Source: Octopus vulgaris
Taxonomy: Eukaryota
Assembly: GCA_951406725.2 (NCBI GenBank)
Contig: OX597841.1
Location: 2,666,001-2,730,000, forward strand
Length of the DNA stretch: 64,000 nucleotides
Direction: 5' to 3'
The position numbers are program-made. This document shows, piece by piece, positions 21,001 to 63,000 of this stretch (its first letter is position 1; each line of letters opens with the position of its first letter).

Positions 21001-24000
21001 CAAGTGCCAACCACTTCATATTGTGCCATAGGGTGCTTTTATGTGGCACCACATGGACATTTGAATGTAGCAGCATTTTTAAATGGCATTGCATGGCTAC
21101 TTTTATGAGGAATGGCCGTAAGTGCTTTTAACTAGAAGAGGGATGAGTCTTAACACATCTGTTATGAAGTGTGGATCTTCTTGAGTACAACAAGGCACCA
21201 GGAATGTTGGTCCTTTGTCATCTCACCTGAAAAGTTCTTCAGCACTTCATAGCCTGTCTTTCTGGGTGACCCACATGTTCCATCTGCTTTTAGAGGTTAG
21301 CACTTCTTTATGGTGCTGTCAGCATCCAGCTCAGTTAAGGCAAATGTTTATTTCTTCAGATTATCTCTATAGAAATGAATCATTTATTTTTTTAAATAGC
21401 CTCTACATCTGACACTTCTTTGTCTTTAATTTCAGAGCATCAGATGACAGTGGTGTAACGGAAGACGAACCCTCAACTCTATCCTGTTTTAAAGACTAAA
21501 AGAAAATATTCTATGAAACAGATGTATCAGATTGGTTTTACAAAACTGTAGAAGAATTCCTGTGAAACATTTGTTCTGAAAAAATGTTATTAGCCAAGTT
21601 TCTGGACATCACCAACTGGAGTGTGAAGAAGAGAAGCCTGTGTGCTGATTGAAGTTGGATAAATTAATTGAAGTGTTGCTAAACATAAGTAACACTGGAC
21701 AGAAATACAGCAGAAGAACTGTTTGCAAGAAATAAAGTATAAAAGCAGAAAGAAGAACAAATATAAACTGGGATTTGAGAGGCAAAATATTGGAAGAGAG
21801 TGAAAAAATTGTATGATTCATTTCTTCTGAACACATGAGAGAAGTGATTAGATCATGTGACTGTGATATCTTTACAGATGTCTTATTTTAAAAGAAAGTA
21901 AACTAATTATGCACAAACGTATTCATATGGGGGAGAAACCCTATCATTGTGATGTCTGTGGTAATTCCTTCTCTCACAGTAGTTACTTATCTAGACACAA
22001 ACGTATTCACACTGGAGAGAAACCATATGCTTGTGATATCTGTGGTAAATCATTCTCTCAGAGTGGTGATGTTACTGCTCACAAACGTACTCATACAGGA
22101 GAGAAACCATATCATTGTGATATCTGTGGTAAATCATTTACTAACATTAGTCATGTAACTATACACAGGCGTACTCATACAGGTGAGAAACCATATCACT
22201 GTGACATCTGTGGTAAATCATTCTCTGAAAATAGAATCTTAACTGCCCACAAACGTACTCATACAGGTGAGAAACCATATCACTGTGATATCTGTGGTAA
22301 ATCATTCTCTTATAATTGTGTCTTAACTGCACATAGACGTATTCACACAGGAGAGAAACCATATCATTGTGATATTTGTGGTAAATCATTCTCTCATAAT
22401 AATGTCTTAACTAGACACAAACGTTTTCATACAGGGGAGAAACCACATCATTGTGAAATCTGTGGTAAATCATTCTCTGACGATAGAAACTTAATGAATC
22501 ACAAACGTATTCATACAGGAGAGAAACCATATCATTGTGAAATCTGTGGTAAATCATTCTCTAAAAACTCTAATTTAACTATACACAAACGTATTCACAC
22601 AGGAGAGAAACCATTTCACTGCGATATCTGTGGTAAATCATTCTCTTATAATTGTGTCTTAACTGCACATAAACGTATTCATACAGGAGAGAAGCCATAT
22701 CATTGCGAAATCTGTGGTAAATCATTCTCTAAAAATGATTATTTAACTATACACAAACGTGTTCATACAGGGGAGAAACCATTTCACTGCAATATCTGTG
22801 GTAAATCATTCTCTGACAATAGAAACTTAATGAATCACAAACTGATTCATACAGGAGAGAAACCATATCACTGTGATATCTGTGGTAAATCATTCACTGA
22901 CAATAGAAACTTAATCAATCACAAACTGATTCATACAGGAGAGAAACCATATCATTGTGATATCTGTGGTAAATCATTCTCTAACAATAGAAACTTAATC
23001 AATCACAAACTGATTCATACAGGAGAGAAACCATATCATTGTGAAATCTGTGGTAAATCATTCTCTCAGAATTATGACTTAACTGCCCATAAACGTATTC
23101 ATACAGGAGAGAAACCATATCATTGTGAAATCTGTGGTAAATCATTCTCTGACAATAGAAACTTAACTGCACATAAACGTCTTCATACAGGAGAGAAACC
23201 AATTCAATGTAATATCTGTGGTAAAGCATTTTCTCAAAATTCTGTCTTAACAAGACACAAACATATTCATACAGGTGAGAAACCATATCACTGTGATATC
23301 TGTGGTAAATCATTCTCTCAAAGTATTAACTTATCTACACACATACGTATTCACACAGGAGAGAAACCATATCAGTGTGACATCTGTGGTAAACTATTCT
23401 CTGTCAGTTCTGCCGTATCCAGACACATGCGTATTCATACTGTAGAGAAGCCATACCACTGTGATATCTGTGGTAAATCATTCTCTGAGAATAGTGTTTT
23501 AGCTGCACATAAACGTATTCATACAGGGTAGAAACCATATCATTGTGACGTCTGTGGTAAATCATTCTCTCAAAGTATTCACTTATCTACACACATATGT
23601 ATTCACACAGGAGAGAAACCATTCTCTAAAAATGATACCTTAACATTGTGATGTCTGTGGTAAATCATTCATTCAAAATAGTAACTTAACTGTACACAAA
23701 CGAATTCACACATGTGAGAATCCATATCTTTGTGATATTTGTGATAAATCATTCTCTCAGAATAATGTCTTAACTAAACACAAGCGTATTCATACAGGAG
23801 GGAAGCCATTTCACTGCGATAACTGTGGTAAATCATTCTCTTATAATTGTGTCTTAACTGCACATAAACGTATTCATACAGGAGAGAAACCATATCATTG
23901 TGAAATCTGTGGTAAATCATTCTCTCAAAATTCTATCTTAACAAGACACAGACATATTCATTCAGGGAAGACAGGAAAAGGGTAGTTCCTTGTTCGCTAT

Positions 24001-60000: not shown

Positions 60001-63000
60001 ATTCATTCAAAATAGTAACTTAACTGTACACAAACGAATTCACACAGGTGAGAAACCATATCTTTGTGATATTTGTGGTAAATCATTCTCTCAAAATAAT
60101 GTCTTAACTAAACACAAGCGTATTCTTACAGGAGGGAAACCATATCACTGCGATATCTGTGGTAAATCATTCTCTTATAATTGTGTCTTAACTGCACATA
60201 AACGTATTCATATAGGACAGAAACCACATCATTGTGAAATCTGTGGTAAATCATTCTCTGACAATAGAAACTTAATGAATCACAAAGGTATTCATACAGG
60301 AGAGAAACCATATCATTGTGAAATCTGTGGTAAATCATTCTCTGAAAGTAATCATTTAACTGGACACAAACATGTTCATATAGGAGAGAAACCATTTCAC
60401 TGCAATATCTGTGGTAAATCATTCTCTGACAATAGAAACTTAATGAATCACAAACGTATTCATACAGGAGAGAAACCATATCATTTTGATATCTGTGGTA
60501 AAACATTCTCTATCAGTGGTTATGTTAATGTGCACAAACGTACTCATACTGGAGAGAAACCATATAATTGTGATATCTGTGGTAAAGCATTTTCTCAAAA
60601 TTCTATCTTAACAAGACACAGACATATTCATACAGGGAAGACAGGAAAAGGGTAGTTCCTTATTCGCTATATATTTTTAATATTCTTGTGGTTCATGTAA
60701 TGGAAAATATGAGTAAAATATTTCAAAAATTTTATATTTCTTTGTTTTGTTTTTGTAATATTTGCCTCTCCTTCTTCCACAACTGCTTTTACAGATTCCT
60801 TTCCATAATTTACCAAAACCCCTCCTCCTGACAACCCTACACATCAGGCATAATTATTCAGGGTAGGGCATCGGTGATCTTTGCATAGTGAAACACAGGC
60901 ATGCGACTGAGTTGGAGGCAGAATTACTTGTGTCTTTAGCATGTAAAGAAAACGTTGTTATAGGAGTGTACACAGCACATGTACTACAGCTGTACTATAT
61001 GTAGTTTTAACACTGGAATTGAGGGGCAGGGGCGAATTATGGCTCCTTAATCTACAAAATAATAAGACATTTTGCATGTTATGGGTGGTTATCAGGGTAA
61101 CCTTTGTAATTTTATTGAATTAGGGGCATGCTTTGCAGTAAAAGAAAAATGTTACTTTTTGATGATGCTTTTTACATTCCACTGGCACAGGGGGCCAGTC
61201 AGGTGGCGCTGGCATCGGCCACAACTACAGTTTCCATTTTTGATTTTACTTGACTCAGTAGGTCCCCTTAAGCACAGTGTGTCACCCAACGATTCAAAGG
61301 TACTTCTGAAATGGGCTGGTTATGCAACACTGGTATAGGCTACGGCTGACAGCTTTTTTGTGTGGCAGATGCACAGGAGCAATAAACACCGAAGATGCTC
61401 AGCAAACAGATTCCATCACATGCTAGAGGGAGAAACTAGAAATAGTTGATAACTTCTGTTACCTATGTGACTATGTCTGTAGTTGGTGTGGATGCTCGGA
61501 GACCGTTGTCACTAGAATAAGAATAGCCTGTGCAAAGTTCTGAAATATCCGGCCTCTACTGGTGTCAAAGGACCACTCGTTCAGAGTGAAATGTAGACTG
61601 TATGATGCATGTGTGTGTACTGCCATGCTACACGACAGAGTAACATGGGCCATGACTGTTGAGGACATATGTAGGCTTGAAAGAAATGAAGCTAGTATGA
61701 TCTGCTGGATGTGTAATGTCAGTGTCCATGCACGACAGAGTATAAGTGCCCTTAGAGAAATGTTGGATATAAGAAGCATCAGATGTGGTGTGCAAGAGAG
61801 ACGACTGTGTTTGTATGTTCCTTTGCTGCATATGGATGAGGAGAGCTTTGTGAAGAAGTGTCTCTCCGTAACAATGGAAGGAACTTGCGGAAGAGGGAGA
61901 CCCAGGAAGACATAAGTTGAGGTGGTTAGGCATGACTTCAAATGGTGGGCTTCACAGAGGCAATGACAAGAGACACAGGCCTCTGGAGATATGCTGTGAC
62001 TGTGAAGACCCACACCGTATAAATTATAAGGTTGTCCAGGAAGTTATGACCAATGATGTGTGTAGAAGTATCATCGTGAAAATGTTTCAAGACTAAAGTT
62101 CTCGTTAAATAATTCTTTAATATCTTGTTTTGTTATTTAATTTATTTCGTGAACCTGCAATTATATTATTTGAGGAATTACAACCGTGTTTCGTGGTCTG
62201 CTACCACAACAGATCCTTTATAGGATCCAGTTAGCTGAAGACATCATCAGGAGGAACCACGCCCGGTTTCGGCCCCTACTCCTATACTGTTTTGACGTGA
62301 CGGGGCCCCCACTTTCGGAGTTGTCTTCAGCTCTGGTGTTGGGTACATGTCTTCTTTCTTCTCTTCCCTGGCCTCTTCGACGTATCGTCAGCGAGTGTCA
62401 GCCGGTGACTGACTGTCTCATCAAATTTTTCTCTTTAAATACCTGCCGCAAAGGCTCCAGCAGGCAGCCCTAGCAAGTTGTGTGACACTGTCTCACCTTA
62501 ACAACTTGCCGGGGCTACCTGCTGGCGGCTGTGCAACAGGTATTTATTTACATTTTTAATCCCCTTCCCCAGTTCCCTGCCCTTTTTCTCACACATGATG
62601 TAGGGACATCTATCCTACAAATTTTCATGTTACACGTGGCTTAAATGTCCTGTGAACGAATTCCTTTTAATCAGCTGATAATTCATTTCTAATAACTCTA
62701 ACGCATTCCTCAGCTACCAGATACACACACACATATAACAAAACTATCCCTTATGAAACATTTCCCTAAGTATTAAACAATGAAGATCTTCCATGCTTTT
62801 AATTCTGTAGACGTTCGGTTTTTTTGGCGCATCGATTCTTTGTTTCTCCTCTGTGTTTTATGAACGAATGATGTCCTTGACTTTTGCGTGATTTGGCTGC
62901 TATTTCTAGCAATCGATGAGAGATGTCTATAATTTCTGCAAGATTTAGCTATTATTTCCAGCTATCGACGAGAGATATGCAATAATATACACCCGGAAGA

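What the first reader, a model, noticed from the sequence alone, without database searches (positions are those of the whole stretch)
21909..60655. Combinatorial zinc-finger shuffling: near-identical gene shells with permuted finger arrays
Seen: promoters, introns, leaders and 3' spacers of ZNF3-9 are almost identical, yet the arrays (6-25 fingers) are different orderings of one pool of 84-bp modules. Recurrent helices include [48 protein letters not shown], QNSNLTxH and xSGYVxxH. The ends are anchored: the first finger is xSSYLS(R/T)H in all but ZNF5, and the last is QNS(I/V)LTRHRHIH then GKTGKG. Linker and Cys-encoding DNA is homogenised, while variation sits at helix positions -1 to 6. Known: those positions set DNA specificity, PRDM9 arrays evolve as coding minisatellites, and octopus genomes have expanded clustered C2H2 genes. 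Inference: the cluster generates new binding specificities by inter-paralog recombination at finger resolution, possibly against transposons.
Basis: partly seen in the sequence, partly recalled or inferred. Interest (0 to 1): 0.8.

Follow-up and report, generated by a model that had tools for sequence, protein, structure and literature searches.

The report
Tandem zinc-finger genes reshaped by unequal recombination
Seven young tandem copies of a many-fingered C2H2 zinc-finger gene, probably from a cephalopod, differ because unequal recombination between 84-bp finger repeats deleted, duplicated and fused blocks of fingers, which is the usual way such clusters evolve and not free shuffling of single fingers.

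Summary
The cluster is real. Seven head-to-tail C2H2 genes (Z3-Z9) sit in spacers that are 94-99% identical, and 99 of 124 finger units have a match of at least 95% in another array.

The arrays are not permutations:
- 70 of 117 neighbouring finger pairs recur in the same order in another array. Shuffles gave 17.9 +/- 4.6.
- 118 of 136 one-to-one matches are collinear.

The differences are block deletions, block duplications and three gene-to-gene fusions with mapped junctions:
- a hybrid finger in Z5 that matches its two parents 36/36 and 48/48;
- an in-register hybrid finger in Z3;
- a non-homologous but in-frame junction in Z8.

A recombination breakpoint lies inside Z6 (permutation p = 0.0005).

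Four of the seven copies are disabled. Z3, Z6 and Z9 share a TAG stop, and Z7 is frameshifted.

Positional orthologues show no excess of helix substitutions. Helix diversity is older than the amplification.

Verdict: this is an ordinary birth-and-death poly-zinc-finger cluster with unusually clear recombination junctions. Adaptive shuffling and transposon targeting remain untested. Assembly error cannot be excluded without reads.

The parts
21909..23994 (+). Z3. The frame from the ATG is open for 540 aa and 19 fingers, to a TAG at 23529-23531. One more finger follows, then a 19-nt remnant (23622-23640), then 4 fingers and the GKTGKG-stop. It is a fusion: A-type fingers 1-11 (matching Z4), fingers 12-15, a terminal-type finger 16, then a B-type tail.
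23253..23260 (+). Crossover interval inside hybrid finger Z3.16. On the 5' side it matches terminal-type fingers (Z8.14, Z8.25). On the 3' side it matches B-type finger 4 (Z6.04, Z9.03) with no mismatch after unit position 51. The junction is in register.
   Evidence: the best single parent has 9 mismatches and the two-parent mosaic has 3
29105..30322 (+). Z4. Intact 405-aa frame with 14 fingers (A-type).
34765..35898 (+). Z5. Intact 377-aa frame with 13 fingers. Finger 1 is 100% identical to B-type finger 5 (Z6.05, Z9.04). Finger 3 is a hybrid.
35000..35003 (+). Crossover point inside hybrid finger Z5.03. The 5' 36 nt match the [12 protein letters not shown] finger (Z3.11, Z4.11, Z6.14, Z9.13) at 36/36. 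The 3' 48 nt match the first finger of Z8 at 48/48.
   Evidence: the best single parent has 7 mismatches and the mosaic has 0
40332..41775 (+). Z6 (B-type). Seven fingers, then a TAG at 40944-40946. A broken finger and a 58-nt remnant follow, then 8 units in another frame, two of them with a lost zinc ligand.
40556..40622 (+). Recombination breakpoint interval in Z6 (finger 3/4). To the left Z6 groups with Z7 (24 sites against 3). To the right it groups with Z9 (76 against 30).
   Evidence: chi-square 32.8; permutation p = 0.0005 from 2000 shuffles of site order
46886..48405 (+). Z7 (B-type), a pseudogene-like copy. The frame is lost after finger 2, and there are several small indels relative to Z6. 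It keeps GAG where Z3, Z6 and Z9 have TAG.
54540..56723 (+). Z8. Intact 727-aa frame with 25 fingers. It is a C-type array of 14 fingers that ends in a terminal-type finger, fused to an A-type array of 11 fingers.
55735..55737 (+). Z8 fusion junction. The terminal finger is joined, with one unmatched base, to the helix part of an A-type first finger. The junction is out of register by 42 nt and has no flanking homology, but it is in frame.
59296..60655 (+). Z9 (B-type). Six fingers, then a TAG at 59824-59826, then remnants as in Z6. It lacks exactly one 84-bp finger relative to Z6.
23995..29104 (.). One example of the shared spacer (the 'shell'). It carries retroelement-like open frames that were copied along with the gene unit. 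The other spacers lie between the arrays listed here.
7742..9631 (+). Z1, an older paralogue with 22 fingers. Its upstream 700 bp are 18-19% diverged from Z3, Z4 and Z6. Used as an outgroup.
15186..16235 (+). Z2, an older paralogue with 12 fingers. Its upstream 700 bp are 16-17% diverged from Z3, Z4 and Z6.

Best explanation
This is a young tandem amplification: seven copies of a 4.8-7.7 kb unit holding an apparently single-exon poly-C2H2 zinc-finger gene, probably in a cephalopod genome.

SHOWN
- The copies share spacers that are nearly identical.
- The arrays share one collinear layout.
- The arrays differ by deletions and duplications in multiples of 84 bp, by hybrid fingers, and by three fusions of neighbouring genes (Z3, Z5, Z8).
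- At least one crossover or conversion breakpoint lies inside an array.
- One copy pair is under purifying selection.
- Four copies are disabled.

INFERRED
- The mechanism is non-allelic homologous recombination, or replication slippage, between the 84-bp finger repeats. It acts both within a gene and between direct-repeat neighbours.
- The Z8 fusion is instead an illegitimate deletion that happened to stay in frame.
- The cluster evolves by birth and death. The helix types are older than the amplification. New DNA-binding arrays arise mainly by changes in finger number and by concatenation, not by free reassortment of single fingers.
For: SHELLS AND AGE
- Spacer identity is 94-99%.
- Synonymous distance of collinear fingers is about the same as, or slightly above, flank distance. 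Pooled over scaffold and helix it is 0.038 for Z3 against Z4 and 0.040 for A-type against B-type. Flank distance is 2-4%.

ORDER
- 70 of 117 neighbour pairs are shared, against 17.9 in shuffles.
- 118 of 136 matches are collinear.
- 108 of 124 fingers have their nearest relative in another array, 9 in their own array, and 7 tie.

RECOMBINATION
- Z5.03 matches its two parents at 36/36 and 48/48.
- The Z3.16 mosaic has 3 mismatches against 9 for the best single parent.
- The Z8 junction is mapped.
- Z9 lacks exactly 84 bp between two fingers that share their first 35 nt.
- A 168-bp tandem duplication, Z8.20-21 copied as Z8.22-23, is 99-100% identical.
- The triplet breakpoint in Z6 has permutation p = 0.0005.

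SELECTION
- Z3 against Z4, fingers 1-11: 7 synonymous and 1 non-synonymous difference, scaffold pN/pS 0.04.
- Z6 against Z9: pN/pS about 0.8.

DECAY
- A shared TAG, frameshifts and lost zinc ligands.

OLD HELIX TYPES
- The same helix types occur in Z1 and Z2, whose flanks are 15-19% diverged.

PUBLISHED PRECEDENT
- Finger duplication and deletion is called 'a common path for divergence' of primate KZNF genes (PMC3126818, passages read).
- Mouse KZFP paralogues evolve by 'drifting and shifting' of finger arrays (PMC5363842, passages read).
Against: - Some fingers have no close relative in the window: Z8.05 at 82%, Z8.07 at 87%, Z5.06 at 90%.
- Z5 and Z8a finger pairs show scaffold synonymous distance 0.15, although their flanks differ by under 3%. 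Either these pairs are not true orthologues, or those array parts are older than their shells or were imported from paralogues outside the window.
- The upstream flank tree is an unresolved star (0 of 5 inner branches supported) and the downstream tree is weak. A burst of duplication therefore cannot be told from spacer homogenisation.
- The orthologue pairs for the selection test came from alignments that required about 93% identity, which biases against detecting fast helix change.
- There are no transcript data, so the gene models, including the start codon, are unverified.
- There are no reads, so the assembly is unverified.
Confidence: 0.75

Rival explanations
1. One reading: the cluster is an adaptive engine that reassorts single finger modules between paralogues to create new DNA-binding specificities, possibly directed at transposons.
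For: - Recombination junctions lie inside fingers, just before or just after the helix.
- One extra QSINLSI finger, Z8.17, sits between two fingers that are adjacent in Z3 and Z4.
- Two of the three fully open genes, Z5 and Z8, are fusion products.
- Between finger types, helix pN (0.43) exceeds helix pS (0.36).
- Octopus ZNFs were among the species analysed for predicted binding motifs in TE consensus sequences (PMC10547256, passages read).
Against: - 87-90% of close matches are collinear, and neighbour order is far above shuffles.
- Among young orthologues there is no helix or contact excess of non-synonymous change.
- Four of the seven copies are disabled.
- The A-type pair is under purifying, not diversifying, selection.
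- No effector domain was found in the frames tested.
- No transposon-binding test was run.
Confidence: 0.15
2. Assembly artefact: the chimeric arrays Z3, Z5 and Z8, or the copy number, are mosaics produced by mis-joining reads from units that are 96-99% identical.
For: - Units are 4.8-7.7 kb long and 96-99% alike, which is hard to assemble.
- Z7 has many small indels that could in part be read errors.
Against: - Every copy carries private substitutions.
  - The Z3 tail has 30 differences in 8 fingers from Z6.
  - Z8b has 13 differences in 6 fingers from Z4.
- The chimeras are therefore not joins of other copies present in the window.
- The Z8 junction has no homology on either side, which is not what repeat collapse produces.
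- The Z7 indels include insertions of 6 and 4 nt.
Confidence: 0.07
3. The arrays are old and distinct, and it is the spacers that are kept alike by ongoing gene conversion (concerted evolution of the shells).
For: - Flank informative sites are a mosaic, and the upstream tree is an unresolved star.
- Z5 and Z8a finger pairs have scaffold synonymous distance 0.15, against flank distance under 3%.
Against: Collinear fingers of A-type and B-type arrays have pooled synonymous distance of only 0.04-0.06, close to flank distance. Most array content is therefore as young as the shells.
Confidence: 0.15

Closest known systems
Mammalian KRAB zinc-finger (KZNF/KZFP) gene clusters
   Same: - Tandem paralogues made by segmental duplication.
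- 84-bp finger units with TGEKP linkers.
- Divergence mainly by gain and loss of fingers, with many pseudogenes.
(PMC3126818 and PMC5363842, passages read; compared.)
   Different: - No KRAB or other effector domain was found in the frames tested.
- The genes look single-exon, with a 10-residue leader.
- Three of the seven copies are fusions of neighbouring genes with mapped junctions. I did not see such fusions described in the passages I read.
PRDM9 zinc-finger coding minisatellite
   Same: - An 84-bp coding repeat.
- Copy-number change and hybrid repeats by unequal exchange.
- The first repeat is distinct from the rest.
(PMC3890296, passages read.)
   Different: - Here the repeats within an array are only 78-84% identical overall and 85-92% in the scaffold.
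- Most fingers are closest to a finger in another gene.
- No PR/SET domain was seen.
- Exchange occurs between separate genes, not alleles.
- Population variability is unknown.
Lineage-specific C2H2 expansions of coleoid cephalopods
   Same: The window holds a large young family of multi-finger C2H2 genes. Large lineage-specific expansions are reported for octopus and squid (PMC12513265: abstract, section 16 and passages read). [quoted passage not shown] The tandem-cluster description in the 2015 octopus genome paper is recalled only; that paper was not held.
   Different: - The published work I could read is at gene-tree and expression level. It gives no finger-by-finger account.
- The taxon of this window is inferred only from retroelement hits to Argonauta hians.
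Zebrafish FiNZ zinc-finger genes
   Same: A young, clustered, rapidly duplicating poly-ZNF family outside tetrapods, with high entropy at base-contacting residues (PMC10547256, passages read).
   Different: - FiNZ genes carry a conserved N-terminal domain, and four of seven tested clades favoured a model with positive selection.
- Here no such domain was found, and no contact-residue excess was seen among young copies.

Membership tests
Tandem poly-C2H2 (Krueppel-type) zinc-finger gene cluster | Repeated C-x2-C-x12-H-x3-H fingers of 28 residues joined by TGEKP-like linkers | tested here: met
   - 144 pattern matches lie within the nine arrays.
- nhmmer tiling recovers the units.
- Pfam zf-C2H2 and zf-H2C2_2 give 14 stretches in Z4.
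- TRF finds period 84.
Tandem poly-C2H2 (Krueppel-type) zinc-finger gene cluster | Several paralogous genes head to tail in one locus | tested here: met
   Nine arrays lie on the + strand. Seven of them have spacers 94-99% identical.
Tandem poly-C2H2 (Krueppel-type) zinc-finger gene cluster | Sequence-specific DNA binding | not testable with these tools
   No binding assay or recognition-code predictor is on hand.
KRAB zinc-finger genes | KRAB (or SCAN/BTB) effector domain encoded upstream of the fingers | tested here: not met
   Pfam found no domain in 14 spacer open frames, most of them from the Z3-Z4 and Z4-Z5 spacers. Short exons could be missed, and there are no transcript data.
PRDM9-like coding minisatellite | 84-bp repeats nearly identical within the array except at contact codons (concerted evolution within the array) | tested here: not met
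   - Within-array identity is 85-92% in the scaffold and 56-62% in the helix.
- 108 of 124 fingers are closest to a finger of another array.
- TRF reports 77-83% matches.
PRDM9-like coding minisatellite | High germline and population variability of repeat number | not testable with these tools
   This needs long reads from several individuals or from sperm.
Transposon-directed ZNF arms-race family | Excess non-synonymous change at contact residues between recent paralogues | tested here: inconclusive
   - Contact Nd:Sd is 13:5 against 63:41 in the scaffold, Fisher p = 0.43.
- pN is 0.022 against 0.021.
- Counts are small and pair choice was biased toward similar fingers.
Transposon-directed ZNF arms-race family | Binding motifs enriched in the host's transposons | not tested
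   No motif predictor or transposon library for this species was available.

The most novel reading that the evidence does not exclude
Unequal exchange between neighbouring genes of this cluster is frequent and productive. Concatenating whole arrays, through hybrid fingers at the junction, would be a main route by which cephalopod genomes build new long poly-zinc-finger proteins. Here three of seven copies are fusions, and two of the three fully open genes are fusion products. The locus could be as variable between individuals as PRDM9 is in mammals.
Probability: 0.2. Interest if true: 0.6.

Novelty: new member of a known kind. Interest (0 to 1): 0.4.

Why it matters
The window gives base-resolution junctions for how a young invertebrate zinc-finger cluster remodels its DNA-binding arrays. 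It holds two in-register hybrid fingers, one illegitimate in-frame fusion and one internal crossover, all within about 39 kb.

If long reads confirm them, these junctions show that changes in finger number and gene-to-gene fusion, not point changes at contact residues, dominate early divergence. That matches what is reported for primate KZNF orthologues.

The locus is also a convenient place to measure array instability in a cephalopod. It does not by itself show a new mechanism or a link to transposons.

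Tried and rejected
1. An intron that would remove the shared TAG and restore the frame in Z6 and Z9. The GT and AG sites I checked by eye around 40941-41095 (sequence shown) give a stop or a broken frame, so I rejected this.

2. Recent gene conversion to explain the 99% identity of Z3 and Z4 fingers 1-11. Rejected: 7 of the 8 differences are synonymous, and pS (0.05 in the scaffold) is not below flank distance (2.5%). 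Purifying selection is enough.

3. Extra homogenisation of scaffold DNA inside the cluster. Rejected.

4. Z9.01 and Z3.12 as hybrid fingers. The gain over a single parent is only 2 mismatches. For Z9.01, retained ancestral states (shared with Z1 and Z2) explain it equally well. Left open.

5. Taxon.
- The first protein search, with Z4, was swamped by vertebrate ZNFs at 36-60% identity.
- The second, with a spacer frame, gave 4 unnamed hits.
- The third, with a reverse-transcriptase fragment, gave Argonauta hians as the only named source among the 120 hits listed.

6. Rfam at gathering score and the tRNA scan found nothing.

7. Pfam on spacer frames found nothing, apart from one chance-level match at E = 0.035.

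8. The 2015 octopus genome paper was not held.

9. Flank trees were too unresolved for a tree-against-tree test.

Full report
WHAT IS THERE

The window has no N. It carries nine + strand arrays of 84-bp C2H2 finger units, which I call Z1-Z9.
- 21909 is a conserved in-frame ATG 33 nt before finger 1 of Z3.
- 60655 ends the last open frame of Z9.
- Pfam confirms C2H2 fingers in Z4.

I tiled the arrays into 159 units with a profile built from the 144 array units found by pattern match.
- 150 ungapped units (116 in Z3-9 and 34 in Z1-2) went into the codon statistics.
- One badly degraded unit, Z7.10, was dropped from the order statistics, leaving 124 units in Z3-9.

THE SHELLS

Spacers of Z3-Z9 align in long blocks at 94-99% identity, with a few large indels.
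- The p-distance is 0.7-3.9% over 980 bp upstream.
- It is 1.7-4.4% over 920 bp downstream.

Z1 and Z2 are older paralogues.
- Their upstream 700 bp are 15-19% diverged.
- Downstream, only about 160-200 bp after the stop are still alignable.

The spacers hold retroelement-like open frames that were copied with the unit. Pfam names none of them. So 'near-identical shells' is correct. 'Promoter' and 'intron' cannot be verified.

In Z1 and Z2 an ATG-led leader (MAMMSVQSPSFKES) precedes the fingers. In Z3-9 those ATGs are mutated, and the first in-frame ATG gives [11 protein letters not shown].

THE POOL IS REAL BUT THE ORDER IS NOT PERMUTED

The pool:
- 99 of 124 units have a match of at least 95% in another array.
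- 34 have a 100% match.
- 7 have no match of at least 90%.

The order:
- 70 of 117 ordered neighbour pairs recur in another array, against 17.9 +/- 4.6 (maximum 32) in 2000 shuffles with the ends held fixed.
- 118 of 136 one-to-one matches at 95% or more lie on a collinear chain, against 70.9 +/- 3.5 in 500 shuffles. At 97% or more the count is 74 of 82.
- The non-collinear matches are concentrated in pairs involving Z3 or Z8.

Finger-level alignments give three layouts:
- A: Z3 fingers 1-11, Z4, and Z8 fingers 15-25.
- B: Z6, Z7, Z9, and Z3 fingers 17-24.
- C: Z5 and Z8 fingers 1-14, which are only loosely alike.

WHAT MAKES THE ARRAYS DIFFER

1. In-register indels.
- Z9 lacks exactly one 84-bp finger of Z6, between two fingers that share their first 35 nt.
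- Z8.20-21 is duplicated as Z8.22-23 at 99-100% identity.
- Z3.11-13 are near-copies of one another.

2. Three fusions of neighbouring genes.
- Z5.03 is a perfect hybrid. Its first 36 nt equal the [12 protein letters not shown] finger (Z3.11, Z4.11, Z6.14, Z9.13) at 36/36. Its last 48 nt equal the first finger of Z8 at 48/48. The best single parent has 7 mismatches.
- Z3.16 is a terminal-type finger ([16 protein letters not shown]) up to about unit position 51-58. After that it is identical to B-type finger 4, and Z3 then continues as B fingers 5-11 and 16. The mosaic has 3 mismatches against 9 for the best single parent.
- Z8 joins a terminal-type finger to the helix of an A-type first finger at 55735-55737. 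One base is unmatched, there is no homology, and the join is 42 nt out of register but in frame.

3. A crossover or conversion inside Z6.
- In the Z6/Z7/Z9 triplet, sites left of 40556-40622 group Z6 with Z7 (24 against 3).
- Sites to the right group Z6 with Z9 (76 against 30).
- The permutation p is 0.0005.

DECAY

Z3, Z6 and Z9 share a TAG in a linker codon, with the same altered context. Z7 has GAG there.
- After the TAG come a remnant finger and a frame change in Z6 and Z9.
- Two later units in Z6 and Z9 have lost a zinc ligand.
- Z7 has many small indels and loses its frame after finger 2.
- Only Z4 (14 fingers), Z5 (13) and Z8 (25) are open to the GKTGKG-stop.

I could find no canonical intron that would remove the TAG and restore the frame. 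This was a check by eye on the sequence shown.

SELECTION

Between finger types the variation sits in the helix.
- Entropy is 2.5-2.9 bits at -1, 2, 3 and 6.
- Helix pN is 0.43 against pS 0.36.
- Scaffold pN is 0.10 against pS 0.28.

These types already exist in Z1 and Z2, so this diversity predates the amplification.

Among positional orthologues of the young copies there is no helix excess. I chose the six comparisons from the collinear alignments, which biases toward similar fingers.
- Helix Nd:Sd is 17:5 against 63:41 in the scaffold, Fisher p = 0.15.
- Helix pN is 0.017 against 0.021 in the scaffold.
- Contact codons give 13:5, p = 0.43.

Two comparisons used every finger of the compared stretch, so they are free of that bias.
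- Z3 against Z4, fingers 1-11: 7 synonymous and 1 non-synonymous difference, which indicates purifying selection.
- Z6 against Z9: pN/pS about 0.8, which indicates relaxed constraint.

HOMOGENISATION

Scaffold third positions are not very diverse, and the preferred synonymous codon depends on the column. The units therefore share ancestry at the DNA level.

Scaffold pS between different finger types is the same within Z3-9 (0.279) as between Z3-9 and Z1/Z2 (0.259). Also, 108 of 124 fingers are closest to a finger of another array. This is not PRDM9-style within-array concerted evolution.

AGE, AND WHAT STAYS OPEN

Pooled synonymous distance of collinear A and B fingers is 0.04-0.06, close to flank distance. 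Most array restructuring therefore happened within the short time since the amplification.

Flank trees are nearly unresolved. The upstream tree has 0 of 5 inner branches supported. Downstream, only Z3+Z9 reaches 88/90, which fits their shared B-type tails.

Z8 fingers 2-13 and parts of Z5 lack close relatives in the window, and the scaffold pS of Z5/Z8a pairs is 0.15. Their sister copies may have been deleted, may lie outside the window, or the shells may have been homogenised. I cannot tell which.

Assembly error cannot be excluded without reads. Against it, each copy has private substitutions and the Z8 junction is non-homologous.

TAXON

A reverse-transcriptase fragment at 19604-20059 has Argonauta hians proteins as its only named relatives among the 120 hits listed, at 67% and 65% identity. 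An unnamed record reaches 87%. The Z4 search also listed one A. hians protein. An octopod-like cephalopod is likely but not shown.

COMPARISON WITH WHAT IS KNOWN

- Gain and loss of fingers is described as a common path of divergence in primate KZNF genes, and as more frequent than contact-residue change between orthologues (PMC3126818, passages).
- Mouse KZFP paralogues evolve by 'drifting and shifting' of finger arrays (PMC5363842, passages).
- PRDM9 arrays are 84-bp coding minisatellites with unequal exchange (PMC3890296, passages).
- Cephalopod C2H2 genes form large lineage-specific expansions (PMC12513265: abstract, section 16 and passages).
- Octopus was one of the species whose ZNFs were analysed for predicted binding motifs in TE consensus sequences (PMC10547256, passages).
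- Four literature searches turned up no finger-level account of a cephalopod cluster. Supplements were not seen, and the 2015 octopus genome paper was not held.

VERDICT

This is a new member of a known kind: a birth-and-death tandem poly-zinc-finger cluster remodelled by unequal recombination, with unusually clean junctions. The 'combinatorial shuffling' and 'anti-transposon' readings are not supported by what could be tested.

Noticed in passing
window 3915-4868 and 5472-5596: A 52-bp satellite with 18.3 copies at 93% matches, plus a second short block of the same unit.
   Followed up: no
window 6613-7057, with inverted copies at 3176-3357: A 183-bp unit repeated in tandem (2.1 copies, 97%) just upstream of Z1, with copies in inverted orientation about 3 kb away. 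It looks like an interspersed element. No tRNA or Rfam family was detected.
   Followed up: partly
window 1641-2229, 10429-10768, 11529-11674, 11917-12098, 16687-16874: A G+C-rich repeat with 63/171-bp internal periodicity, found in both orientations between Z1, Z2 and Z3.
   Followed up: no
window 17920-18387 (-) and 19235-20059 (+): Open frames that look like retroelement fragments, on opposite strands in the Z2-Z3 spacer. The + strand frame at 19604-20059 matches proteins carrying reverse-transcriptase and endonuclease domains. The best named source is Argonauta hians at 67%. The - strand frame was not searched against homologues.
   Followed up: partly
window 7745-9573 (Z1): Z1 has a higher-order repeat of five fingers (period 420 bp, 4.4 copies, 86% matches). 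This is an older internal block amplification.
   Followed up: no
window 7730-7775, 15175-15219 and the same place in Z3-Z9: Z1 and Z2 keep an ATG-led leader (MAMMSVQSPSFKES). In all of Z3-Z9 these ATGs are mutated and one base is inserted, leaving the ATG 33 nt before finger 1 as the first in-frame start.
   Followed up: partly
window 51999-53268 and 13675-14270: The Z7-Z8 spacer keeps a 1.27-kb segment that the other spacers lack. Its end, and the sequence after it, match the region upstream of Z2 at 86-93%. It is probably ancestral sequence deleted elsewhere rather than an insertion.
   Followed up: partly
window 13866-13949 and 53152-53235: A chance C-x2-C...H-x3-H pattern (HSCLICNKDCRS...) lies in that shared non-finger sequence. 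It is not a finger unit.
   Followed up: yes
window 9623-9824, 16227-16431 and the first ~165 bp after each Z3-Z9 stop: About 160-200 bp downstream of the stop codon stay 78-80% alike between the old and young paralogues, while the rest of the downstream spacer is unrelated. This may be a conserved 3' untranslated region.
   Followed up: no
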